A stretch of 64,000 nt of DNA from Candidatus Cloacimonadales bacterium (GCA_963665015.2 CAXXSY010000003.1:64373-128372), one strand, 5' to 3'; numbered from the stretch's first letter, positions 26,961 to 44,552 are shown. Numbers and translations: made by a program. The notes: generated from the letters alone by a model not told the origin.

Positions 26961-27812
26961 CTACCGTTTCGCAACATAATACGCACTCTTTTTATACTCG
27001 TGTTTCCGGAACTTCGTCGAAATACCGTCCAGCGATTCCGACTCGCCAATCAATAGGTACCCATCGTCATTCAGGTTGTGGAACATCTTGTCGAAAAGCT
27101 TCTTCTTGGATTCAAACGGAAAATACACCGCCACATTGCGCAGAAAAATCAGATCGCAGGACGGAATATTGATGAAGTCGAGCTGCAGGTTGAACGGACT
27201 GAAAGTTACCATATCCCGGACATCCTTCGATATCTCGCTGATGCCATCCTCTTCCGTGAAATATCGTTCCCGGAAATGCGGTATCATCCCTTTCCGCATC
27301 GCTTGCACACTATAACGTCCCGATATCGCCCGATAGAGAGCACTCGGCGATATGTCGGTCGCCAGAATGCTGAAGGTGGAGGGATTGATCATCGGATAAC
27401 GCGTCAGCGCTTCGAGCAGAATCATGGCAAAAGAATAGATTTCCTCTCCCGTCGATACGCCGGCCGACCACACCTGTATCTGTGACTTCCTGCCCGAGCG
27501 GATGTCAGAGATAAACCGCGGAACGATCAGCTCATCGACGATCCCCCAGGGCTTGTTATCGCGAAACCAGGACGTCTCGAATATCGTGATCGCATCGATG
27601 ATCTTGTTTCGAAGGTTGCCCGTCGTGTCCATCTTCGCCTTGTGATAAAACTCACGAAACGTCTTGCAACCGCATTCGATCACCAGATTCGACAAGTACC
27701 CCTCGATAAAGGTAGCCTTCTCGTCACCGATTACAATTCCGAATTCTTTCTGGATATACTCACGAAGTAATACAAAATCTCCAGGCTCGAGCGGTATCTT
27801 CGAAGATATCAT
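26961..27812 (-). CDS. cheR: chemotaxis protein methyltransferase CheR
   Basis: ETSWFRD, QVWSAGVSTGEEIYSFAMIL and FLRNVAVYF motifs. Confidence 0.88.
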   Translation of the reverse strand: MISSKIPLEPGDFVLLREYIQKEFGIVIGDEKATFIEGYLSNLVIECGCKTFREFYHKAKMDTTGNLRNKIIDAITIFETSWFRDNKPWGIVDELIVPRFISDIRSGRKSQIQVWSAGVSTGEEIYSFAMILLEALTRYPMINPSTFSILATDISPSALYRAISGRYSVQAMRKGMIPHFRERYFTEEDGISEISKDVRDMVTFSPFNLQLDFINIPSCDLIFLRNVAVYFPFESKKKLFDKMFHNLNDDGYLLIGESESLDGISTKFRKHEYKKSAYYVAKR

Positions 27813-28232
27813 CGCACGCTCCGGGACATCATGATTTTATCTATAAACACGAATATTGATTTACCCATATCATACTCATTTCGACAAAACATGACAGGCA
27901 ACATACACCCGATATTGCGATTGATGGAAACGGGCTATTCATTATTGCAGATTCTCCCTTTCTGATCAGATCAATCGCCCAATCGTTACGAATTTACGTA
28001 ATCCACCTCTGCCCAGAAGAGCCCAATATCAACTCAACACGGGACACCATGGATTACAAGGTTTTTCCTATTGATAGTTTAGCAAGAAATCCCATCGTGT
28101 CAAGTCGTTTCATTATCGTTGATTTCTTATTTTTCAGAATCGACAATCCCTTAATACCCCTTCCGAGTTTTTTTGTGTATTACTCTTCTTTTATTTCTAT
28201 AGATCGACTCATGAACCTCCCGCTATCCTATC

Positions 28233-28263
28233 TATAGAAAAGGGAGACTCATACGAGCCTCCC
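28233..28263 (-). terminator. intrinsic terminator of the carboxyltransferase operon
   Basis: On the - strand: GGGAGGCUC-GUAU-GAGUCUCCC (9-bp stem with one G-U pair), followed by UUUUCUAU. It starts 25 nt after the stop at 28288. Confidence 0.6.
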
Positions 28264-28287
28264 ATCTATCTCTTTTGTTCGATTTCG

Positions 28288-30258
28288 TTATTCGATCACG
28301 CAGAGAACGGCGTCCTTGGAAACGTTGTCACCGGCGCCGAAAGGAATCTCCTTGATCGTGCCTTCGAAAGTGGCTTCGATGTTGTTGTACATCTTCATGG
28401 CTTCCAGAATCAGGATCGTTTCACCGACCGCAACCTTGTCGCCCACCTGCTTCTTGTATTCGATCACCATGCCCGGCATGGGGGCCGTAACGACATGCTG
28501 GCCTTCCGCAACGGCAACCTGTGGTTTGGGCGCTTCTTTCTTCGGTGCGGGTTTCGCAGCCGGAGCCGGAGCAGCAGGTCTCGCAACCGGTCTCACACTC
28601 GGTGCGACCGCCGGCATACCGTCCGATCCGATCTCGACCTTGAAGTACTCGTCATCAACATAGACGTCGAAGCTGCGCACGTTCTCCGGTTTGGGAGGTG
28701 CTTCTTTGACAGGCTTTTCGACCAGCTCGCCGCACAGCGCTTTGTGAACGAGCTTCCGCTCCGCTTCGCACTCCTCGATGGTCTTGGGCATCACGTCTTT
28801 CGGAGGCTCTTCCTTACCGTATTTCCACTTCAGGAAGCGCTTTCCGGTGACCGGATAGAGCGCCACGATCAGTTCGTCGTCGAGGTCTTTTGCCAGACCC
28901 TTGCACTCTTCCTTCACTTTGGGCAGTTCCGGTTCGAGGACATCGCCCGGGCGCACGTCGGTCGGTTCCTCGCCGCGCGGGTAATCCTTCAAGGCCTTCG
29001 CCTGAACGTCCTTGTCGATCGGTCGCGGCGTCCTCCCGTAGAGACCGAAGCAGAGGTCTTTGACCTGCTCGGTGATGCGGTTGTATTCGCCTTCTTCCTT
29101 GTCGAAGAGGACGTTGTTCACCGTCTGGATGCCGACGATCTGACTGGTCGGAGTCACGAGCGGCACCTGGCCGAGGTCTTTGCGCACCTTGGGCAGGGTT
29201 TCGAAGACGTCTTCGAGCCGGTCGAGCTGCTCCATCTGGCGAAGCTGGTTGACCAGGTTGGAGAGCATTCCGCCCGGCGTCTGGTGCAGGATTACGTTGA
29301 TATCGATGACGGACAGCTTGGTGTTGTCCAGGAAGTGCATGTATTTCGGCGCGATCTTTTCGAGTTTCTTGTCGATGTCGCTGAGCAGGTTGATATCGAA
29401 TCCGGTATCGCGGTTGGTGCCGAGGAGGCTGACCACCAGCGGTTCGATGGCCGCGTGCGAGGTACGGTAGGCAAACGGCGCCAGGCAGGTATCGACGATA
29501 TCGACGCCGGCCTCGATCGCCTTGAAGATCGAGAGATCGCCCATCCCGGATGTGAAGTGCGTGTGCAGATGGATCGGGCATTTGACGGTCTCTTTGAGCG
29601 CCTTGATCAGGTTGTAGGCGTCATACGGCGCGATCAGACCCGCCATGTCCTTGATGCAGATCGAGTCCGCGCCCATCGCCTCGAGCTCCTTCGCCTTGTC
29701 GAGGTAGTACGCGAGATTATAGACGTCGCCACCCATGCGCTGCTCGGTGAGCGAATAGCATATCGATCCCTGGAAGTGCTTCTTGTTCTTCTGGATGATT
29801 TTCACCGCGGTCTCGAAATTGCGGAAGTCGTTGAGCGCGTCGAACACGCGGAAGATATCGATGCCGTTGTCTGCGGCACGCTGCACGAACGCCTCGACCA
29901 CGTCGTCCGCGTAGTTGCGGTAACCCACCAGATTCTGGCCGCGAAGCAGCATCGAGAATGGGGTGTTCTTCATGTACTTCTTCAGGGTGCGAATCCTTTG
30001 CCACGGATCCTCGTTGAGGTAGCGATGCATGGTGTCGAAGGTCGCTCCGCCCCATACTTCTGTCGAGTAGAAGCCGACCTGATCGATTTGCTCGGCGACT
30101 TCCAATAAATCCTCGGTTCTGCCGCGCGTGGCGAAGATGGATTGATGTCCGTCGCGGAAGGTCAAGTCCTGCACCTTGACAGGATTGGCTGCTTTCGGGC
30201 GATCCTGGCCGTACTTCATGTCGGTCAGTTCGAGCGCCCCGTGCTTGTCGTATTTCAT
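28288..30258 (-). CDS. carboxyltransferase 5S-type subunit fused to biotin carboxyl carrier domain (oxaloacetate decarboxylase alpha / transcarboxylase 5S+1.3S-like)
   Basis: LTFRDGHQS carboxyltransferase motif, HLHTHFTSGM, an Ala/Pro-rich linker (PVARPAAPAPAAKPAPKKEAPKP) and the biotinyl motif EAMKM near the C-terminus. Confidence 0.85.
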   Translation of the reverse strand: MKYDKHGALELTDMKYGQDRPKAANPVKVQDLTFRDGHQSIFATRGRTEDLLEVAEQIDQVGFYSTEVWGGATFDTMHRYLNEDPWQRIRTLKKYMKNTPFSMLLRGQNLVGYRNYADDVVEAFVQRAADNGIDIFRVFDALNDFRNFETAVKIIQKNKKHFQGSICYSLTEQRMGGDVYNLAYYLDKAKELEAMGADSICIKDMAGLIAPYDAYNLIKALKETVKCPIHLHTHFTSGMGDLSIFKAIEAGVDIVDTCLAPFAYRTSHAAIEPLVVSLLGTNRDTGFDINLLSDIDKKLEKIAPKYMHFLDNTKLSVIDINVILHQTPGGMLSNLVNQLRQMEQLDRLEDVFETLPKVRKDLGQVPLVTPTSQIVGIQTVNNVLFDKEEGEYNRITEQVKDLCFGLYGRTPRPIDKDVQAKALKDYPRGEEPTDVRPGDVLEPELPKVKEECKGLAKDLDDELIVALYPVTGKRFLKWKYGKEEPPKDVMPKTIEECEAERKLVHKALCGELVEKPVKEAPPKPENVRSFDVYVDDEYFKVEIGSDGMPAVAPSVRPVARPAAPAPAAKPAPKKEAPKPQVAVAEGQHVVTAPMPGMVIEYKKQVGDKVAVGETILILEAMKMYNNIEATFEGTIKEIPFGAGDNVSKDAVLCVIE

Positions 30259-32034: not shown

Positions 32035-32242
32035 TCAAACCTCTTGTCATAGCCCGCGCACGGCGAGCCGTCGTTATTGTTTTCTATCCGATAGAAAAAA
32101 GTATTTTGCGTTCATAAGGGCAAGTTTTTTTTCGCGAAGAGGGTAGAAACCATTGAACCAGACATGGTTATCGGGTGGGGAATCAGGTATGAAACAAAAT
32201 GTTGTAAATCCAACACTAAATCGTCTCGACCGGTTATTTTAC

Positions 32243-32271
32243 TTGACATAAACCTTGATTTTCATTATCAT
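32243..32271 (+). promoter_or_regulatory. candidate sigma70-type promoter for the AT-rich operon
   Basis: TTGACA (32243-32248), a 17-nt spacer, then TATCAT (32266-32271). A second TTGACA at 32361 has no good -10 element. Confidence 0.3.
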
Positions 32272-32411
32272 AATAATGAAGGTTGAATAGAATGGGGAAG
32301 AGATGATTAGCTTCTGCAGCGCCTTGATTTATATTAAATAATGACTAAAACAAAAAAAACTTGACATGCTGTTTACACATGAATCTCCTTATCCCATAAA
32401 AGGAGGTGACC

Positions 32412-32858
32412 ATGTTCCAGTCAAATGGAAGATACTCATCGATGTTCAATATCGGAAAAGATATTGTCAAGCGAGAACATTCCGTACCGTTGAAAAGCAT
32501 TGAGAAGTTCTATCTCAATAATTTGCGGGAATATTTCGAGAAATATTTAGCCGGAGTGTCAGCTTGGAATTCTGGTGATCAGGTTACCTATAATACCGTT
32601 TCCAGCTTATGCGCATTTCCGAGCATTGGCAGCTTACAGAAGATCAAGATTGAAGAATCATACACCAAGAAGTACAATCCCGTTTCAACATTGCATTTTA
32701 TTGTTGATTATATCAGCGATGTCTCACAAATGAAACCTGTAAAACAAGAAAGCAGAGAGGCTTTGAGTGAGATTTTTGATTACTTTTATAAAATTCACGA
32801 AAAAGCCGAGAGCTCAGAAGACATTCAAAGTGATATAATTGATAATTTCGACGACTAA
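32412..32858 (+). CDS. hypothetical small protein with strongly acidic C-terminal tail (island gene A)
   Basis: ATG at 32412, 5 nt after AGGAGG (32401-32406). 148 aa with no motif I recognise. The C-terminus is EKAESSEDIQSDIIDNFDD. Its stop lies 3 nt before gene B. Confidence 0.6.
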   Translation: MFQSNGRYSSMFNIGKDIVKREHSVPLKSIEKFYLNNLREYFEKYLAGVSAWNSGDQVTYNTVSSLCAFPSIGSLQKIKIEESYTKKYNPVSTLHFIVDYISDVSQMKPVKQESREALSEIFDYFYKIHEKAESSEDIQSDIIDNFDD

Positions 32859-32861
32859 CAT

Positions 32862-34229
32862 ATGCTTTCCCAATCAATTAGACGCAATGAGCTCTTAAGG
32901 TGCGTAAGGTCCATTCTTGAGTTTATCGAGGAATTGAGCGCAAAAGATTACCATTCCCAAAGTATCGTTGAATTATTGGATGCTTACAGATTGACACTGA
33001 ACTCACTATACGGATGGCTTCAATATATTAAACCATCAGACCTAATACCGAAACATAGTAACGAAATCCATAATATTCTTGTTAATGGCATCTCCACCAG
33101 CCTGCGATACATCCAAAGATCACAAACAAAATATACTCCGTGGAGCATGCTAACATTATTAGAGGAACTTGTAGGCAAGATATATGAAGATCAAAGAATC
33201 GTTATTAGGCCAAAATGGCGATGGCATTATCAAATCGCCACAAAGCCGATGAATATCAAACTCTCTGAGTTACTAGCATACATGTGCGCTAATGATCCCA
33301 CCATAATCGATGAGTGTAATAAACTCGAGATGATGAGAAAAATTCGTTTTGTTTCCTTTCCAATAATGGAAGTAGATAATTATCTCGCACACATACTTTT
33401 TTTTCACGAAATTGGACATCTTATCCAGGAAGAAATGTTTGATAACATTATCCCCAAGAAACTTTCAGAAATGATGTATGACAAGAATAGAAAAGATGAT
33501 AATGACGACATGAATGCCAGGCAGATAACCGTTTACATCAACATGCTCCTACAGGAAATTATCCCAGATGTTGTGGCATATCTCCTCGTAGGACCAGCAT
33601 ACTTTATTGGTTTATTCACAGCGCAAAACTACTCTTTAGTTAACGGAAGCGATAAATTGCCAACAAAACAGGAGTGCTCAGATATTATAAAGAGGTCGTC
33701 ACTACCAACATACCCGCACCCTCCTCTTGCATTACGCTTAACATATCTTTATGACTATTATTATAAGAGAGACATAAAAGAGAAGTATCAAGGCTGCTAC
33801 TACAGACTGAAACCGTTTAGTGATTGTAACGACTACACACACAAAGAAACAATAGCTAGATACAGCTCCACCGAACCAAATATTGATATAGCATACAGGA
33901 TATTTATTGCAATTATGGAAGCAGTCAAACCAGATATCAAGAAAAGACTCGATGGTTTAGTTTATTCTGGCGCTTCCCGTACTGATATCGAATATTTGCT
34001 CAATAAATTGAGACACGATATTCCACCAGTAGAACTCAAGAATGGAAACGTTGCCGAAATTGGAGATGTTTTTCTTGCCGCCTTTTTTTATGTATATTTC
34101 GAGATAATTCGCAAAGAAAAGAATCCTGTTTCCTATTGTGAGAAAATGGAAACCATGAATAAGTTAATTAAATTTACTTTCAATGGAATAAGATATAAGG
34201 ATATGTATAATGCCTGTTTATCGCGATAG
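32862..34229 (+). CDS. hypothetical 455-aa protein with HExxH zinc-metallopeptidase motif (island gene B)
   Basis: FFHEIGHLIQEE at aa 181-191 (nt 33405-33419 encode HEIGH). A downstream EIIPDVVAYLLVGPAY (aa 232-247) could supply a third ligand, as in ImmA/IrrE- or M48-like gluzincins. The rest of the protein is unrecognised. Confidence 0.6.
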   Translation: MLSQSIRRNELLRCVRSILEFIEELSAKDYHSQSIVELLDAYRLTLNSLYGWLQYIKPSDLIPKHSNEIHNILVNGISTSLRYIQRSQTKYTPWSMLTLLEELVGKIYEDQRIVIRPKWRWHYQIATKPMNIKLSELLAYMCANDPTIIDECNKLEMMRKIRFVSFPIMEVDNYLAHILFFHEIGHLIQEEMFDNIIPKKLSEMMYDKNRKDDNDDMNARQITVYINMLLQEIIPDVVAYLLVGPAYFIGLFTAQNYSLVNGSDKLPTKQECSDIIKRSSLPTYPHPPLALRLTYLYDYYYKRDIKEKYQGCYYRLKPFSDCNDYTHKETIARYSSTEPNIDIAYRIFIAIMEAVKPDIKKRLDGLVYSGASRTDIEYLLNKLRHDIPPVELKNGNVAEIGDVFLAAFFYVYFEIIRKEKNPVSYCEKMETMNKLIKFTFNGIRYKDMYNACLSR

Positions 34230-34833
34230 AATTATCGAATTAATGAGTTTGCCGCCAGATAGAAAAGATGCTCTATACATTACGCCACAATTGGATTTGG
34301 AAAGCATTGGAGATATAGGTATCGATTTACGATTGTCAAACCAATTTATTGTTTTCAATGCTGATTCATTGTGTCATATAGATTTTCTTGATTCATCTGA
34401 GGGTAAAGAGAGAATTAGAAAATATCAAAAATATGTCGTTGTTCCCCCAAATAAACCATTTATTCTACACCCCAACACACTCGTATTAGGATCAACTTTG
34501 GAGTTTGTCTCAATGCCCAATAACCATTCAGGATCAATTGATGGTAGATCGTCTTGGGCTAGACACGGACTAATTATTGCTACTGCGTGTGCAATAGATC
34601 CAGGCTTCAAAGGCACAATTACACTTGAATTAACTAATCTCGGGGAATCTCCGTTGTACTTGTATCCAGGAGTTAGAGTTATCCAGCTTTTTCTGGAGAA
34701 TTTGGGAAATAAGGCCAGAGATTATTCAAAAGGGTGCCGAAAATACCGTGTTCAAGTTGGTCCTGAATTTAGTAAAATTCATGACGATAGAGAGATGCCA
34801 ATACTTAGAAAAATGTACGGAAGAAGTCACTAA
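34210..34833 (+). CDS. dcd: dCTP deaminase family protein (island gene C)
   Basis: It aligns by eye along the full length of E. coli Dcd. DGRSSWARHGL matches GRSSLARLGL, IDPGFKGTITLELTN matches IDPGWSGCIVLEFYN (catalytic Glu retained, E140), and the N-terminal DRDI-like RDRIIE is present. The start overlaps gene B by 20 nt. Confidence 0.8.
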   Translation: MPVYRDRIIELMSLPPDRKDALYITPQLDLESIGDIGIDLRLSNQFIVFNADSLCHIDFLDSSEGKERIRKYQKYVVVPPNKPFILHPNTLVLGSTLEFVSMPNNHSGSIDGRSSWARHGLIIATACAIDPGFKGTITLELTNLGESPLYLYPGVRVIQLFLENLGNKARDYSKGCRKYRVQVGPEFSKIHDDREMPILRKMYGRSH

Positions 34834-42004: not shown

Positions 42005-44254
42005 CTATTTCAGTATCATGACCTTGCGGGTCTGGTCGATGTTGTCGGCGGTCATGCGGATGAAGTAGATTCCGGACGGAAGACCTTCCGCGTCCCAGGT
42101 GAGGGTGTTGTCGCCCTTCTTGCCGTTCGGCGTCAGTTCTTCCACCTTGCGGCCCCTGATGTCGAACATGGTGAATCTCGCCCTGCCATCCTGTTTCAAC
42201 GAATAGCTGATCGTGGTCACCGGATTGAACGGATTGGGATAGACACCGCTGAACTCGGTCAGATACGTGACGACCGGCGGCTCATTGAATCCGCCCTCTT
42301 CGGCGATGGTCACCGAGACGGGACCGAACAGGGTCGAGGAGCCGTTCAGCTCCACGCTCTCCAGCCAGTAGTTGTACGTGGAATTCTTCGTCACATCTTC
42401 GTCGATATATCGGTAGCTTGCGCCGTCGGAGGCGTTTTCTCCTGGGATAAGCTGAAGGTTGACACGCATCGCGTCGTCGAGAACGTCGTTGTCCGCGCGC
42501 AGCAGGTTGTAACCCGCGATATCGCACTCGGACTGGGTCGCCCACTCGATCTTCGCAAAATTTTGCGAGGTGACGGTCGCGGAGAAGCTGGACAGCTCGA
42601 CCGGCAGGGTGGAGCCGTCGCCCTCGTTCATCACGAATTCCTCGCCGCCGTCGCGGAGCGGAGAATCGAAGGTCCAGGTGAAGGTCGCGGTCTGATCGAC
42701 GTAGTTCCACACCACGCCGGGGACAGCTACCCATACCCCGCCGTTGTTCCAGACCAGTTCGTCCGGCTCGAAGGGCAGTCCGTCGAAGTGCAGCACGATT
42801 TCCACAGGCTGGATCGTGCCGGTGACGGTCACTTCGTAGGTAAGGCATGCGTTGACGGGAATCATGACATCGCCGTTGCCGACGGTGACCACGACATCCA
42901 CCGCGATCGCCGCGCCGACTTCTTCCGGGTCGATATCCACGTCCGGATCAACCACCACCGCGCCGCCGCCGTTGTAGTCGTACGGATCGAGCGGCTCGAC
43001 AGCCACGGGCAGCGGATCGTCGTCCGCCGGGGTGCCGTTCGCTGTGCCGGTGCCGGGAATTGGAGCTTGAAAAATGTATGCAGAGCCATAACCATCATCC
43101 CATGCGCCAGCAATTGCATACTCACTATTGATAGAAACAGACCAGCCAAAATAATCTAGTTCAGCTCCATCACTCGCTATCAATTTAACTTCCTGAGCCC
43201 ATGCTATTCCTTCTCTCCGATATATATATGCCGAACCGGAATTAGAACCGAGGGTATCATCAAGATATGCACCCACAATTGCATCTTCACCAGAGATAGA
43301 TACTGAAATACCAAAACAGTCACTTTCCGCTCCATCATTGGCCACCAGTTTTGTTTGCTGAGTCCATGTTGAACCTTCTCGATGGAAAATATATGCTGAG
43401 CCGGAGCTTGCACCAAGATCACCATCACCAGGTACTCCAATAATTACATCATCACCACAAATTGATACTGATCTGCCGAAATAATCGCATTCTACGCCAT
43501 CATCTGATTTCAATTTGGCTTGTTGAGACCATATTGTACTTTCTTTATAGAATATATATGCCGAACCACTCATGTTTCCTAAATCATCATCATTTGCAGC
43601 ACCAATAACCGCATAATCACCATCGATTGAAACAGACCATCCAAACGTGTTACCCAAACCTCCATCATCGGCTGTAAGTTTTTCATAATGATTCCATTCT
43701 GTTCCTTCTCGATGATAAACGTATGCTGAACCGGATGAGAAGTTTAAATCGTCATCCCCATAGGCACCCACAATCGCATAATCACCTGATATAGATACGG
43801 AATAACCGAACCTGTCTTCCTCGGCGCCATCATATGCAATTAGTTTTACTTGTTGATTCCATGATGAACCATCTCTTTGGAATATATAGGCCGAGCCTGA
43901 ATTGTTACCAAAATCGTTGTCACCATACGCACCAACTATCACGAAATCTCCAGAAATTGAGACAGAAAAACCAAATATATTGTTCGCCGCTCCATCGTTA
44001 GCAGTCAATTTTGCTTGTTGTGTCCAGCCTACAATATCACGATGGAAAATATATGCAGAACCAGAATTATTACCCAAGTCATCATCACAATAAGCCCCAA
44101 CAACCATATAATCACCTGAGATCGAAACCGAATAACCGAATCGATCATTTGATCCCCCATCACTCGCGAGGAGCTTCTGGATTTCGTTCCATTCCGCGTG
44201 GATCGTGGTTACCGTGAAGATGGTAATAAGCAGGATAAAAAGTGCCTTTTTCAT
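42005..44254 (-). CDS. FG-GAP-like beta-propeller repeat protein with T9SS C-terminal sorting domain
   Basis: Signal peptide MKKALFILLITIFTVTTIHA. About 7-8 tandem ~50-aa units (D.FG.SVSISGDY.IVGA..DD....SGSAYIF.R.G..W.Q..KL.A.DG). The C-terminus is VYPNPFNPVTTISY...GIYFIRM...VMILK. Confidence 0.75.
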   Translation of the reverse strand: MKKALFILLITIFTVTTIHAEWNEIQKLLASDGGSNDRFGYSVSISGDYMVVGAYCDDDLGNNSGSAYIFHRDIVGWTQQAKLTANDGAANNIFGFSVSISGDFVIVGAYGDNDFGNNSGSAYIFQRDGSSWNQQVKLIAYDGAEEDRFGYSVSISGDYAIVGAYGDDDLNFSSGSAYVYHREGTEWNHYEKLTADDGGLGNTFGWSVSIDGDYAVIGAANDDDLGNMSGSAYIFYKESTIWSQQAKLKSDDGVECDYFGRSVSICGDDVIIGVPGDGDLGASSGSAYIFHREGSTWTQQTKLVANDGAESDCFGISVSISGEDAIVGAYLDDTLGSNSGSAYIYRREGIAWAQEVKLIASDGAELDYFGWSVSINSEYAIAGAWDDGYGSAYIFQAPIPGTGTANGTPADDDPLPVAVEPLDPYDYNGGGAVVVDPDVDIDPEEVGAAIAVDVVVTVGNGDVMIPVNACLTYEVTVTGTIQPVEIVLHFDGLPFEPDELVWNNGGVWVAVPGVVWNYVDQTATFTWTFDSPLRDGGEEFVMNEGDGSTLPVELSSFSATVTSQNFAKIEWATQSECDIAGYNLLRADNDVLDDAMRVNLQLIPGENASDGASYRYIDEDVTKNSTYNYWLESVELNGSSTLFGPVSVTIAEEGGFNEPPVVTYLTEFSGVYPNPFNPVTTISYSLKQDGRARFTMFDIRGRKVEELTPNGKKGDNTLTWDAEGLPSGIYFIRMTADNIDQTRKVMILK

Positions 44255-44552
44255 GATCGTACTCCTTTCCATTTTTCATGGATATGATGGTGGATGTCAT
44301 GCCGGCATCGTTTTCAGCCGGATTTGATTTCGTTGATCATGTTTGGAGGGAATACCAGTTGTCACCCCGGCAGCCGGTATATCTAACCGATATAAATGAA
44401 TGATATGCGATGGAATTAATTTTTGTCAAGCGGTATTTTGCGAATTATTTAATAAAATGTGTCGAATGTGGAAACGAATTTCTCACCGACTACGAATCAT
44501 TCAACCGTGAAGAGAAAGAAAATACGAAGGACGTCCGCGTCCCGGCAATATC

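What the first reader, a model, noticed from the sequence alone, without database searches (positions are those of the whole stretch)
32035..34833. AT-rich three-gene operon (acidic-tail protein / orphan HExxH protein / dCTP-deaminase-fold enzyme): candidate novel nucleotide-depletion defence module
Seen in the sequence:
1. There is a sharp composition break. Hand counts give 25, 19 and 26 G+C per 60 nt in lines 32861, 33421 and 34501, against 36 and 35 per 60 in flanking lines 30481 and 35041.
2. Apart from the two T9SS genes at the far left, these are the only + strand genes in a run of - strand genes from 4152 to 45794.
3. The genes are tightly coupled. A strong SD lies 5 nt before ATG 32412, the A/B gap is 3 nt, and B and C overlap by 20 nt.
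4. Gene C is a full-length Dcd homologue with catalytic residues intact.
5. Gene B (455 aa) carries HEIGH plus a downstream E/D-containing helix and is otherwise unrecognisable to me. Gene A is unrecognisable and ends in a very acidic tail.
6. I see no integrase, tRNA or flanking direct repeats.

Established knowledge:
- dCTP deaminases have been shown to act as anti-phage effectors by draining dCTP.
- Small repressor plus HExxH protease pairs (ImmR/ImmA, DdrO/IrrE, CapH/CapP) gate mobile-element and defence operons.

Inference: genes A and B may form a sensor/derepression or activation pair controlling a Dcd effector. I am not aware of this three-gene arrangement having been described.
Basis: partly seen in the sequence, partly recalled or inferred. 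Interest (0 to 1): 0.85.

Follow-up and report, generated by a model that had tools for sequence, protein, structure and literature searches.

The report
Conserved zincin–dCTP deaminase three-gene cassette
A sharply AT-rich three-gene island next to recG is one copy of a rare, previously unannotated cassette found across many environmental bacteria, in which a new-fold zinc-motif protein is always paired (sometimes fused) with a dCTP deaminase; its role, anti-phage defence or regulated nucleotide metabolism, is still unproven.

Summary
Window 32035-34833 has GC 0.37 against 0.53 elsewhere (z -6; tetranucleotide z +15.6). It holds three tightly coupled + strand genes between a carboxyl transferase and recG. 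C is a catalytically intact Dcd-fold dCTP deaminase. A and B match no Pfam, NCBIfam, PADLOC or PHROG family.

New findings:
- B belongs to a rare family (204 clusters among 1.84 billion) with invariant HExGH, ExxxD and a conserved Arg. Its confident model (pLDDT 92.6) matches no solved or viral structure.
- In 27 of 28 non-redundant loci a Dcd gene follows B directly, and a fast-evolving ~150-aa gene precedes it.
- All seven long family members are B-Dcd fusions.
- Neighbours vary: some are integrase, OLD nuclease, transposase or XRE regulators, but most are housekeeping genes.
- A sister species carries the island at the identical recG junction. Synonymous sites are saturated, yet GC3 stays near 0.3 beside genes at 0.77.

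Verdict: this is a real, undescribed functional unit. The defence reading is plausible but unproven, and the ImmR/ImmA-type analogy fails. Known defensive dCTP deaminases use a different fold.

The parts
32035..32411 (+). 377-nt AT-rich leader between the divergent carboxyl transferase gene and gene A. It contains a TTGACA-17-TATCAT promoter-like site (32243-32271), a second TTGACA at about 32361, an SD GGAGG at 32402-32406, and a local hairpin that pairs an anti-SD (CUCCUU) with the SD.
   Evidence: Sequence. The promoter scan scored 11 of 12, but the total number of sites is not above shuffles. The hairpin appears in the MFE and centroid folds, but the whole-leader z-score is only -0.32. No Rfam match. 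The leader does not align with the sister species except at the SD.
32412..32858 (+). Gene A: 148-aa predicted helical protein with an acidic C-terminal tail. It is the fast-evolving first gene of the cassette.
   Evidence: ORF and SD. Its only sequence relative is in the sister species, at 64% identity. An ORF of 143-204 aa occupies the same position with tight coupling in essentially every related locus. The four sequence clusters are linked by weak co-linear hhalign matches (P 1e-3, 4e-4, 3e-5) and share one near-invariant Phe. No Pfam or PDB hit.
32862..34229 (+). Gene B: 455-aa mainly alpha-helical protein (two short beta-strands) of an unannotated family carrying a gluzincin-type motif set.
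   Evidence: No Pfam, NCBIfam, PADLOC or PHROG hit. 204 family representatives at E<=1e-3 among 1.84 billion clusters. AlphaFold2 model with pLDDT 92.6 and pTM 0.92. No significant Foldseek match in the PDB (best E 0.84) or BFVD (best E 0.02, TM 0.15).
33405..33419 (+). Codons for H182-E183-I184-G185-H186 (HExGH) of B.
   Evidence: H182, E183, G185 and H186 are invariant in 42 family members and >=90% conserved in 149. They lie on helix 176-195, directly after strand 160-167.
33555..33569 (+). Codons for E232-I-I-P-D236 of B (ExxxD, the presumed third metal ligand helix).
   Evidence: E232 and D236 are invariant in 42 family members and >=90% conserved in 149, on helix 214-243.
33711..33737 (+). 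Codons for Y284-PHPPLAL-R292 of B (family motif YPPxxxR).
   Evidence: P287 and R292 are invariant in 42 members, and R292 is >=90% conserved in 149.
34210..34833 (+). Gene C: 207-aa Dcd-fold dCTP deaminase. It overlaps B by 20 nt.
   Evidence: TIGR02274 139 bits (cutoff 92.8); PF22769 7.6e-30. Best PDB relatives are the M. tuberculosis and E. coli Dcd proteins, E 2e-25 to 9e-24.
34546..34629 (+). Codons R113-E140 of C: the catalytic segment DGRSSWAR...ITLE, equivalent to E. coli R110, S111, R115 and E138.
   Evidence: These four positions are invariant in all 21 cassette-linked Dcd proteins aligned with the validated E. coli Dcd sequence.
34789..34830 (+). Last 14 codons of C: a C-terminal extension beyond the end of canonical Dcd.
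   Evidence: All 21 cassette-linked Dcd proteins extend 7-21 residues past the E. coli C-terminus, usually with an aromatic or hydrophobic residue followed by Pro or a basic residue.
34830..34833 (.). 4-nt convergent overlap of the stop codons of C (+) and recG (-): the right-hand junction of the island.
   Evidence: The same overlap and surrounding sequence are conserved in the sister species L002, so there was one ancestral insertion.

Best explanation
The island is one copy of a rare, horizontally spread three-gene cassette that works as a single physical unit.

The parts:
- C is the catalytic output, a competent Dcd-fold dCTP deaminase (dCTP to dUTP, or to dUMP if bifunctional).
- B is a new-fold protein with a gluzincin metal site (HExxH plus ExxxD). 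I infer that it sits on C and controls it by metal-dependent hydrolysis. The most likely target is A, or the family-specific C-terminal tail of C. In Dcd enzymes that tail has to close over the active site.
- A is the rapidly diversifying partner. I infer that it is the inhibitor or specificity subunit.

Shown:
- The cassette is conserved as a unit.
- B and C are fused in some lineages.
- The catalytic and metal-site residues are invariant.
- The three genes co-diversify.
- The cassette sits at many unrelated chromosomal sites with atypical composition.

Inferred:
- The hydrolytic (proteolytic) control step.
- The biological role. I think the most likely role is a conflict function: phage or mobile-element defence, or a toxin-antitoxin-like module that collapses the dCTP pool on a trigger.

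In the window's lineage the cassette was inserted once next to recG and has been kept under purifying selection ever since.
For: Unit:
- A Dcd gene lies immediately downstream of B in 27 of 28 non-redundant loci, in contigs with GC from 0.25 to 0.67.
- An ORF of about 150 aa lies immediately upstream in essentially all of them.
- All 7 family representatives of >=650 aa are N-terminal B plus C-terminal Dcd fusions (Dcd E<=1e-52), with both motif sets kept.
- Pairwise divergences of A, B and C are correlated (Mantel r 0.57-0.67, p<=5e-4). Conservation runs C >> B > A.

Competence:
- R110, S111, R115 and E138 are invariant in 21 of 21 C proteins. K178 and Q182 are kept in the window's clade.
- HExGH, E232, D236 and R292 are conserved in B.

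Mobility and conflict flavour:
- The cassette lies between unrelated housekeeping genes in different genomes.
- It lies next to a tyrosine integrase plus OLD nuclease (L010), an integrase (L014), a DDE transposase (L021), and an E1-N/ThiF protein (L024, L032) with an AAA_15 ATPase also nearby in L024. XRE HTH genes adjoin it in L011, L018 and L021, and one lies about 1.5 kb upstream in L009.
- B genes are typically 5-13 GC points below their contig.
- A evolves fast, as sensor or immunity partners do.

Selection: between the window and its sister species dN is 0.23, 0.22 and 0.09 for A, B and C, with synonymous sites saturated.
Against: - There is no experimental or database link to defence. 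A, B and C give no PADLOC hit. The near clade has no relatives in IMG/VR viral contigs. Three family members searched against plasmids gave a single marginal match, and B searched against phages gave none.
- Most neighbourhoods are plain housekeeping genes.
- In the window's lineage the island is old and vertically inherited at a fixed site. That is unusual for defence systems, which usually turn over fast.
- C passes the NCBI equivalog model for ordinary dCTP deaminase and could be the host's only dcd.
- The peptidase assignment of B rests on motifs and helix/strand order only. Foldseek finds no zincin match, and profile searches find no peptidase family beyond one marginal M48 hit in 1 of 42 members.
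Confidence: 0.42

Rival explanations
1. Regulated nucleotide metabolism. The cassette is a xenologous, self-regulated route from dCTP to dUMP for thymidylate synthesis. C deaminates dCTP. B is not a peptidase but a metal-dependent nucleotide hydrolase or regulatory scaffold, for example a dUTP pyrophosphatase analogue. That would create a channelled two-step enzyme, which would explain the fusions. A tunes its activity.
For: - C is a canonical Dcd by the curated equivalog model and by its residues.
- B-C fusions are typical of consecutive metabolic steps.
- The island has been kept vertically under purifying selection at one locus.
- Most flanks are housekeeping genes. In L037 a deoxynucleoside kinase gene lies directly upstream.
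- No other Dcd or dUTPase ORF occurs in the 64-kb window.
- There is a precedent for an HExxH-fold protein annotated as a nucleotide hydrolase: E. coli ygjP is listed as 'UTP pyrophosphatase' (the fold assignment is from my own knowledge).
Against: - The family is very rare (204 clusters among 1.84 billion), whereas Dcd is near-universal and normally stand-alone.
- Distribution is patchy across hosts with GC 0.25-0.67, with atypical composition and different insertion sites.
- Some loci have integrase, transposase or OLD neighbours.
- A diverges almost beyond recognition, which is unusual for a metabolic regulator.
- The B family aligns with YgjP only over the 17-residue HExxH helix (probability 2.6%).
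Confidence: 0.3
2. B is the effector and C is the sensor. B would be a Lit-like toxic metalloprotease (or other hydrolase) that arrests the cell. The Dcd domain would act as a nucleotide-sensing or licensing module that responds to phage-altered dNTP pools or modified dCTP. A would be the antitoxin.
For: - B is the largest protein and is motif-invariant.
- HExxH proteases do act as abortive-infection effectors (Lit; own knowledge).
- dUTPase-fold proteins act as signalling partners in SaPI derepression (own knowledge).
- In the more distant C clades the position equivalent to E. coli D128 and the C-terminal lid residues vary while the core is kept, so substrate handling may differ.
Against: - The full catalytic set of C is invariant in 21 of 21 proteins, which points to a turnover enzyme rather than a mere binder.
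- B has no Peptidase_U49 (Lit) or any other toxin-family hit.
Confidence: 0.12
3. One reading: A is a small repressor and B its HExxH anti-repressor protease (ImmR/ImmA, DdrO/IrrE or CapH/CapP type), together gating transcription of a Dcd effector.
For: - The gene order is small protein, then HExxH protein, then effector.
- XRE-type HTH genes do occur next to several cassettes. These are separate, additional genes.
Against: - A and 22 A-position homologues have no HTH or any other DNA-binding domain hit.
- B does not hit Peptidase_M78 or the PADLOC capP model, even at E<=1.
- B is about 450 aa with a different predicted fold.
- B is fused to the effector in seven lineages, which a transcription-level regulator would not need.
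Confidence: 0.05

Closest known systems
Housekeeping dCTP deaminase Dcd (E. coli 1XS1; M. tuberculosis bifunctional Dcd:dut 2QXX; TIGR02274 / PF22769)
   Same: Gene C has the same fold family. It scores above the curated equivalog cutoff, keeps the catalytic Arg/Ser/Arg/Glu, and in the window's clade keeps the C-terminal lid residues K178 and Q182.
   Different: C is always embedded in, or fused to, a two-partner cassette. It carries a 7-21 aa C-terminal extension. It sits in a compositionally foreign islet, and its family is rare and patchily distributed.
Defensive dCTP deaminase (Tal et al., nucleotide-depletion defence) and AvcD/AvcI
   Same: The possible outcome is the same: dCTP is removed by deamination on a trigger, and the enzyme is held in check until needed (AvcID and own knowledge).
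   Different: The fold and architecture are unrelated. Those proteins are single polypeptides with a kinase-like domain plus a zinc-dependent cytosine deaminase domain, 576 aa in the Tal et al. example. C has no hit to PADLOC models or to cytidine deaminase Pfam families. No partner zincin or A-like protein is described for them.
Repressor/metalloprotease switches ImmR-ImmA, DdrO-IrrE, CapH-CapP (Peptidase_M78 plus HTH)
   Same: A small protein is encoded next to an HExxH protein, upstream of an effector.
   Different: A has no HTH. B is not M78, is three times larger, and is fused to the effector in some lineages.
Gluzincin metallopeptidases (clan MA(E): thermolysin, M1, M3, M48-like)
   Same: The HExxH helix is preceded by a beta-strand and followed by a helix bearing ExxxD. 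All of these positions are invariant in the family.
   Different: No sequence-profile or structural match to any peptidase family. The best fold hits are non-significant (PDB E 0.84; BFVD 'Peptidase' E 0.02 at TM 0.15).
Lit (Peptidase_U49) abortive-infection protease; YgjP/DUF45 'UTP pyrophosphatase'
   Same: Both are HExxH proteins, one with a role in phage exclusion and the other in nucleotide hydrolysis.
   Different: B has no Pfam hit to either family. hhalign against YgjP aligns only the 17-residue motif helix.

Membership tests
dCTP deaminase, Dcd fold (TIGR02274 / PF22769) | Scores above the curated family cutoff | tested here: met
   139.3 bits against a cutoff of 92.8 for TIGR02274; PF22769 104.5 bits against 27.
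dCTP deaminase, Dcd fold (TIGR02274 / PF22769) | Catalytic residues equivalent to E. coli S111, R115 and E138 (plus R110) | tested here: met
   Present in C as R113, S114, R118 and E140, and invariant in 21 of 21 cassette-linked homologues.
dCTP deaminase, Dcd fold (TIGR02274 / PF22769) | Housekeeping role: the genome's source of dUMP, stand-alone gene, dTTP feedback | not testable with these tools
   Only 64 kb of the genome is available, and it holds no second Dcd or dUTPase ORF. The genome record is masked.
Defensive dCTP deaminase (Tal et al.; PADLOC dCTPdeaminase) | N-terminal kinase-like domain plus C-terminal zinc-dependent cytosine deaminase domain, >350 aa | tested here: not met
   C is 207 aa with the Dcd/dUTPase fold only and has no PADLOC hit at E<=1.
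Defensive dCTP deaminase (Tal et al.; PADLOC dCTPdeaminase) | Enrichment next to known defence genes (defence score >0.33) | tested here: inconclusive
   About 5 of 19 non-redundant contexts carry an integrase, a transposase, an OLD nuclease, an E1-like protein with an AAA_15 ATPase, or an excisionase-like gene. Flanks are short, +/-6 genes at best.
ImmR/ImmA, DdrO/IrrE, CapH/CapP regulator pairs | HTH (XRE-type) repressor as the small partner | tested here: not met
   No HTH family hit for A at E<=1, nor for 23 A-position proteins at E<=0.01.
ImmR/ImmA, DdrO/IrrE, CapH/CapP regulator pairs | Peptidase_M78 (COG2856) protease partner | tested here: not met
   B does not hit PF06114 or the PADLOC capP model at E<=1. 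None of 42 family members hits M78.
Gluzincin metallopeptidases (clan MA(E)) | HExxH plus a downstream Glu ligand in an ExxxD helix | tested here: met
   H182, E183, H186, E232 and D236 are invariant in 42 members and >=90% conserved in 149, on consecutive helices that follow a beta-strand.
Gluzincin metallopeptidases (clan MA(E)) | Recognisable zincin fold or profile similarity to a peptidase family | tested here: not met
   Foldseek against the PDB: best E 0.84, TM about 0.1. BFVD: best E 0.02, TM 0.15. The PDB profile search found nothing. One member of 42 hits M48 at E 0.009.
Gluzincin metallopeptidases (clan MA(E)) | Zinc binding and peptide-bond hydrolysis | not testable with these tools
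   Needs biochemistry.
Lit (Peptidase_U49) and YgjP/DUF45 | Sequence-profile membership | tested here: not met
   No Pfam hit for B. hhalign of the B family against E. coli YgjP gives probability 2.6% over 17 columns.
Toxin-antitoxin / abortive-infection module | Toxic effector neutralised by a cognate, labile partner | not testable with these tools
   Only indirect evidence: tight coupling, a fast-evolving small partner, and co-diversification.

The most novel reading that the evidence does not exclude
This is a previously unrecognised class of prokaryotic conflict system. A zinc hydrolase of a new fold is physically docked on, or fused to, a trimeric Dcd-fold dCTP deaminase. It licenses the deaminase by cleaving a hypervariable inhibitor (A) or the enzyme's own C-terminal lid extension, so that the dCTP pool collapses on infection. 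The operon's AT-rich composition is itself under selection, for silencing or low and labile expression of a dangerous enzyme. That would explain why the composition has not drifted towards the host's even though synonymous sites are saturated.
Probability: 0.3. Interest if true: 0.85.

Novelty: new variant of a known kind. Interest (0 to 1): 0.68.

Why it matters
- If the cassette is a defence or toxin-like module, nucleotide-depletion immunity has arisen independently on the Dcd/dUTPase fold. It would also add a new protease-type (or hydrolase-type) control mechanism and two new protein families, one of them with a fold absent from the PDB.
- If it is metabolic, it is a new regulated or channelled route from dCTP to dUMP, with an unprecedented zincin-like partner.
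- Either way, B-Dcd is a clean and testable two-domain system. Natural fusions exist, and the catalytic residues are known on both sides.
- The island is also an unusually clear case of foreign composition being maintained after synonymous sites have turned over completely. That bears on how long 'foreign' signatures can persist, and why.

Tried and rejected
- AlphaFold2 of B with only two sequences failed (pLDDT 37.5). It was repeated with 149 sequences.
- The word-indexed homologue searches found only the sister species for A and B and little more with a profile. The exhaustive HMMER search was what found the family.
- Both genome-contig scans found nothing. Their patterns were specific to C itself or to B's nearest clade, so they say nothing about the wider family.
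- The viral-contig scan of the near clade found nothing.
- tblastn of B against plasmids and phages, and of two other family members against plasmids only, gave a single marginal hit. It is a truncated B-like gene on a Haloplanus plasmid with no Dcd next to it.
- jackhmmer from A did not reach the other A-position proteins. Only profile-profile comparison linked them, and weakly.
- No flanking direct repeats or att-like sites were found, and no tRNA.
- No Rfam element, and no significant overall structure in the leader.
- The window's own record could not be looked up, so the organism and the rest of its genome, including any second dcd, remain unknown.
- YgjP-like nucleotide pyrophosphatase membership for B is rejected at the sequence level.
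- The weak DUF3629 hit of A (E 0.001, below cutoff) is treated as chance.


Full report
**1. The observation**

- Composition. The segment 32035-34833 has GC 0.369. The 112 other 2.8-kb segments of the window have a mean of 0.532 (sd 0.027, minimum 0.472), so z = -6.1. Its tetranucleotide profile is far outside the window's range (z = +15.6). GC3 of A, B and C is 0.42, 0.38 and 0.28, against 0.73-0.82 in five neighbouring genes.
- Strand. The three ORFs are the only credible + strand genes inside a run of - strand genes that spans about 42 kb.
- Coupling. GGAGG lies 5 nt before ATG 32412. The A/B gap is 3 nt and the B/C overlap is 20 nt.
- Flanks. The flanking genes are a carboxyl transferase (PF01039, E 6e-195) and RecG.
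- Mobility marks. There is no tRNA in the window and no meaningful flanking repeat.
- One correction. The 'T9SS genes' at the left end are T9SS-sorted cargo proteins, not secretion machinery.

**2. The three proteins**

Gene C (207 aa) passes the curated dCTP deaminase equivalog model (139 bits against a cutoff of 92.8). It aligns over its full length with E. coli and M. tuberculosis Dcd. I validated my reference E. coli sequence against 1XS1 and aligned it with C and 20 cassette-linked homologues. The equivalents of R110, S111, R115 and E138 are invariant in all 21. The window's clade also keeps D128, K178 and Q182. Every cassette-linked Dcd carries a 7-21 residue extension beyond the canonical C-terminus.

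A (148 aa) and B (455 aa) have no significant hit in Pfam, NCBIfam, PADLOC or PHROGs.

**3. B is not an orphan**

Word-indexed searches found only one relative of A and of B (64-67% identity). The exhaustive HMMER search found 204 cluster representatives at E<=1e-3 among 1.84 billion, mostly 430-510 aa.

In 42 full-length members the invariant residues include P167, H182, E183, G185, H186, E232, D236, P287 and R292. Most of these stay >=90% conserved in 149 members. This gives HExGH followed by ExxxD on the next long helix, which is the gluzincin signature, plus a family-specific YPPxxxR.

With the deep alignment AlphaFold2 gives a confident model (pLDDT 92.6, pTM 0.92). It is almost all alpha-helical, with two short strands, the second just before the HExxH helix. 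Foldseek finds nothing significant in the PDB (best E 0.84, TM about 0.1) or among viral models (best E 0.02 for 'Peptidase', TM 0.15; 'Zincin protease AR9' at E 0.31). A profile search of PDB sequences is also empty. B therefore has a zincin-type metal motif on a fold with no solved counterpart. Calling it a peptidase is an inference.

**4. The cassette is conserved as a unit**

I fetched 31 metagenomic loci through B's nearest subfamily and further contigs by exact protein look-up.

- B then Dcd. In 27 of 28 non-redundant loci that contain sequence downstream of B, a Dcd-fold gene follows immediately on the same strand. It either overlaps B by up to about 45 nt or follows within a few nucleotides; in L027 the gap is larger, where B is truncated. 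L012 is the single exception.
- A position. An ORF of 143-204 aa lies directly upstream of B in essentially every locus that has upstream sequence. These ORFs form four sequence clusters. The clusters are connected only by weak but full-length, co-linear profile matches (P = 1e-3, 4e-4, 3e-5). They share one near-invariant Phe in a C-terminal 'FFxxL'-like helix. None has a Pfam or PDB relative. The acidic tail is peculiar to the window's clade.
- Fusions. All seven family representatives of >=650 aa are fusions of B (N-terminal) and Dcd (C-terminal; E<=1e-52). Six of the seven keep both HExGH and the GxS..R / TLE motifs. One such fusion still has a 154-aa A-position gene upstream.
- Co-diversification. 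Divergences of A, B and C are correlated across 16 loci (Mantel r 0.57-0.67, p<=5e-4). Conservation runs C >> B > A.

Together these results show that A-B-C is a functional unit and that B and C act in physical contact.

**5. Genomic context**

The cassette sits at unrelated sites in different genomes:

- HisRS and GyrB
- Ddl and ParB
- MutY and ThiG
- aconitase / OPT transporter and an M3 peptidase
- glycoside hydrolases
- menaquinone and pantothenate genes
- carboxyl transferase and RecG (the window itself)

Other loci have mobile or defence-type neighbours:

- a tyrosine integrase immediately downstream plus an OLD-family nuclease (L010)
- an integrase (L014)
- a DDE transposase (L021)
- an E1-N/ThiF protein (L024, L032), with an AAA_15 ATPase also in L024
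- an excisionase-like HTH_17 (L040)
- XRE-type HTH genes abutting the cassette (L011, L018, L021), and one about 1.5 kb upstream in L009

No fourth gene is consistently present. B genes are typically 5-13 GC points below their contig mean. This is the behaviour of a small, self-contained, horizontally moving islet. Roughly a quarter of contexts look mobile or defensive, which is suggestive but below the thresholds usually used to call defence genes.

**6. The window's lineage**

A second organism, recovered in two ENA samples as L001 and L002, has the same three genes at the same place. The convergent 4-nt overlap of the C and recG stop codons is conserved at nucleotide level, as is the surrounding sequence. 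The insertion was therefore a single ancestral event.

The two lineages are deeply diverged. The RecG C-terminus is 80% identical with dS 1.34, and synonymous sites of A, B and C are saturated. dN is 0.23, 0.22 and 0.09 respectively, so purifying selection is clear. Both islands nevertheless keep GC3 of 0.26-0.43 beside a recG at 0.76-0.77.

Two consequences follow. First, the cassette has been useful to this lineage for a long time, which fits a domesticated or physiological role at least as well as a fast-turnover defence role. Second, the AT-rich composition has not ameliorated although synonymous sites have turned over. That implies selection, or some other bias, on composition itself. I have no tested explanation for it. 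My speculation is silencing, or low and labile expression of a hazardous enzyme.

**7. Comparison with known systems**

The defensive dCTP deaminases shown experimentally are ~576-aa proteins with a kinase domain plus a zinc-dependent cytosine deaminase domain. That fold is unrelated to Dcd, and C hits none of the PADLOC models. The precedent is therefore functional analogy only.

The repressor/protease analogy (ImmR-ImmA, DdrO-IrrE, CapH-CapP) fails on both defining features. A has no HTH and B is not M78. The fusions also argue for protein-level control.

B is not Lit-like. It is not YgjP/DUF45-like either: only the 17-residue motif helix aligns. ygjP is annotated as a UTP pyrophosphatase, which keeps open the possibility that an HExxH protein acts on nucleotides.

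Literature searches of the held library (open-access PMC and bioRxiv) found no description of a Dcd-fold plus HExxH cassette.

**8. Most likely mechanism, and rivals**

Best-supported reading (confidence about 0.4). C is the catalytic output and drains dCTP to dUTP or dUMP. B is docked on C and controls it by metal-dependent hydrolysis, most plausibly of A or of C's C-terminal extension. In Dcd enzymes the C-terminal segment must close over the active site (my own knowledge of the Dcd structures). A is the variable inhibitor or specificity subunit. The biological role is a conflict function. The unit, the fusion and the residue conservation are shown. The proteolytic step and the defence role are inferred.

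- Main rival (about 0.3). A regulated or channelled metabolic route from dCTP to dUMP, with B as a non-peptidase hydrolase or scaffold. It is supported by the canonical nature of C, the fusions, the long vertical retention, the mostly housekeeping flanks, and a deoxynucleoside kinase next to one fusion. It is weakened by the family's rarity, its patchy distribution, its foreign composition, the mobile neighbours and the extreme divergence of A.
- Minor rival (about 0.1). B is the effector and the Dcd domain is a sensor.
- Minor rival (about 0.05).

**9. Limits**

The key question of a second dcd is therefore open; within the window there is none.
- The negative genome and viral scans used patterns specific to C or to B's nearest clade and do not bound the whole family.

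**10. Verdict**

This is a real, conserved three-gene cassette for which I found no prior description. It contains two new protein families, one with a new predicted fold, wrapped around a Dcd-fold deaminase. It is best filed as a new variant of the known theme of nucleotide-pool-targeting modules. The defence interpretation is plausible but unproven, and a metabolic alternative is serious. Interest 0.68.

Noticed in passing
window 32035-34833 compared with L002 1-2745: The island has not ameliorated. Synonymous sites between the two species are saturated (recG dS 1.34), yet island GC3 stays at 0.26-0.43 beside genes at 0.76-0.82. The C/recG junction is conserved, so the insertion was a single old event. 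This suggests selection on composition itself.
   Followed up: partly
window 32381-32410: A local hairpin pairs an anti-SD (CUCCUU) with the SD (AAGGAGG) of gene A and could mask translation initiation. The whole leader does not fold better than shuffles (z -0.32). The sister species has only a weak 4-bp equivalent.
   Followed up: partly
L012 3-1094; L036 (Haloplanus rubicundus plasmid NZ_CP031151.1) 6214-7675: Two B-like genes have no Dcd downstream. L012 is a clear family member. The Haloplanus hit is marginal (26% identity over 40% of the query). It sits with a small upstream gene, beside a PD-(D/E)XK nuclease plus UvrD helicase pair and a DUF790/DEAD helicase pair.
   Followed up: no
L037 6622-7272: A deoxynucleoside kinase (PF01712) gene lies directly upstream of the A-position gene and the B-Dcd fusion in NCBI MAG GCA_036399915.1. 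This is a possible metabolic link, or a coincidence.
   Followed up: no
L024 5330-6727 and L032 2129-2830: A convergent gene for an E1-N/ThiF (E1-like) protein lies immediately downstream of the cassette in two related loci. L024 also has an AAA_15 ATPase and an HTH gene nearby, so this may be a defence-island context.
   Followed up: partly
Alignment of cassette-linked Dcd proteins: Outside the window's clade the residue equivalent to E. coli D128 (IDPGW motif) is replaced by H, Q, E or N, and the lid residues K178 and Q182 vary, while the catalytic R/S/R/E set stays invariant. Substrate or regulation may differ between clades.
   Followed up: no
L006 3872-4303: A 143-aa dUTPase-like ORF (weak hit to the C-family HMM, E 1e-8) lies about 3.7 kb upstream of the cassette in one host. 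That host therefore has a separate dut-like gene.
   Followed up: no
window 27600-28300 and 43000-44000: Two further, milder GC dips (0.39-0.43). The first spans the 3' end of the CheR gene and the intergenic region downstream of it. The second lies inside the FG-GAP repeat T9SS cargo gene (42005-44272).
   Followed up: no
window 4152-45965: About 42 kb of co-directional - strand genes, mostly housekeeping (CheR, oxaloacetate decarboxylase-like, carboxyl transferase, RecG, SurA-like, GuaA), is interrupted only by the counter-oriented island. The host uses T9SS C-terminal sorting domains, so it probably belongs to the FCB group.
   Followed up: partly
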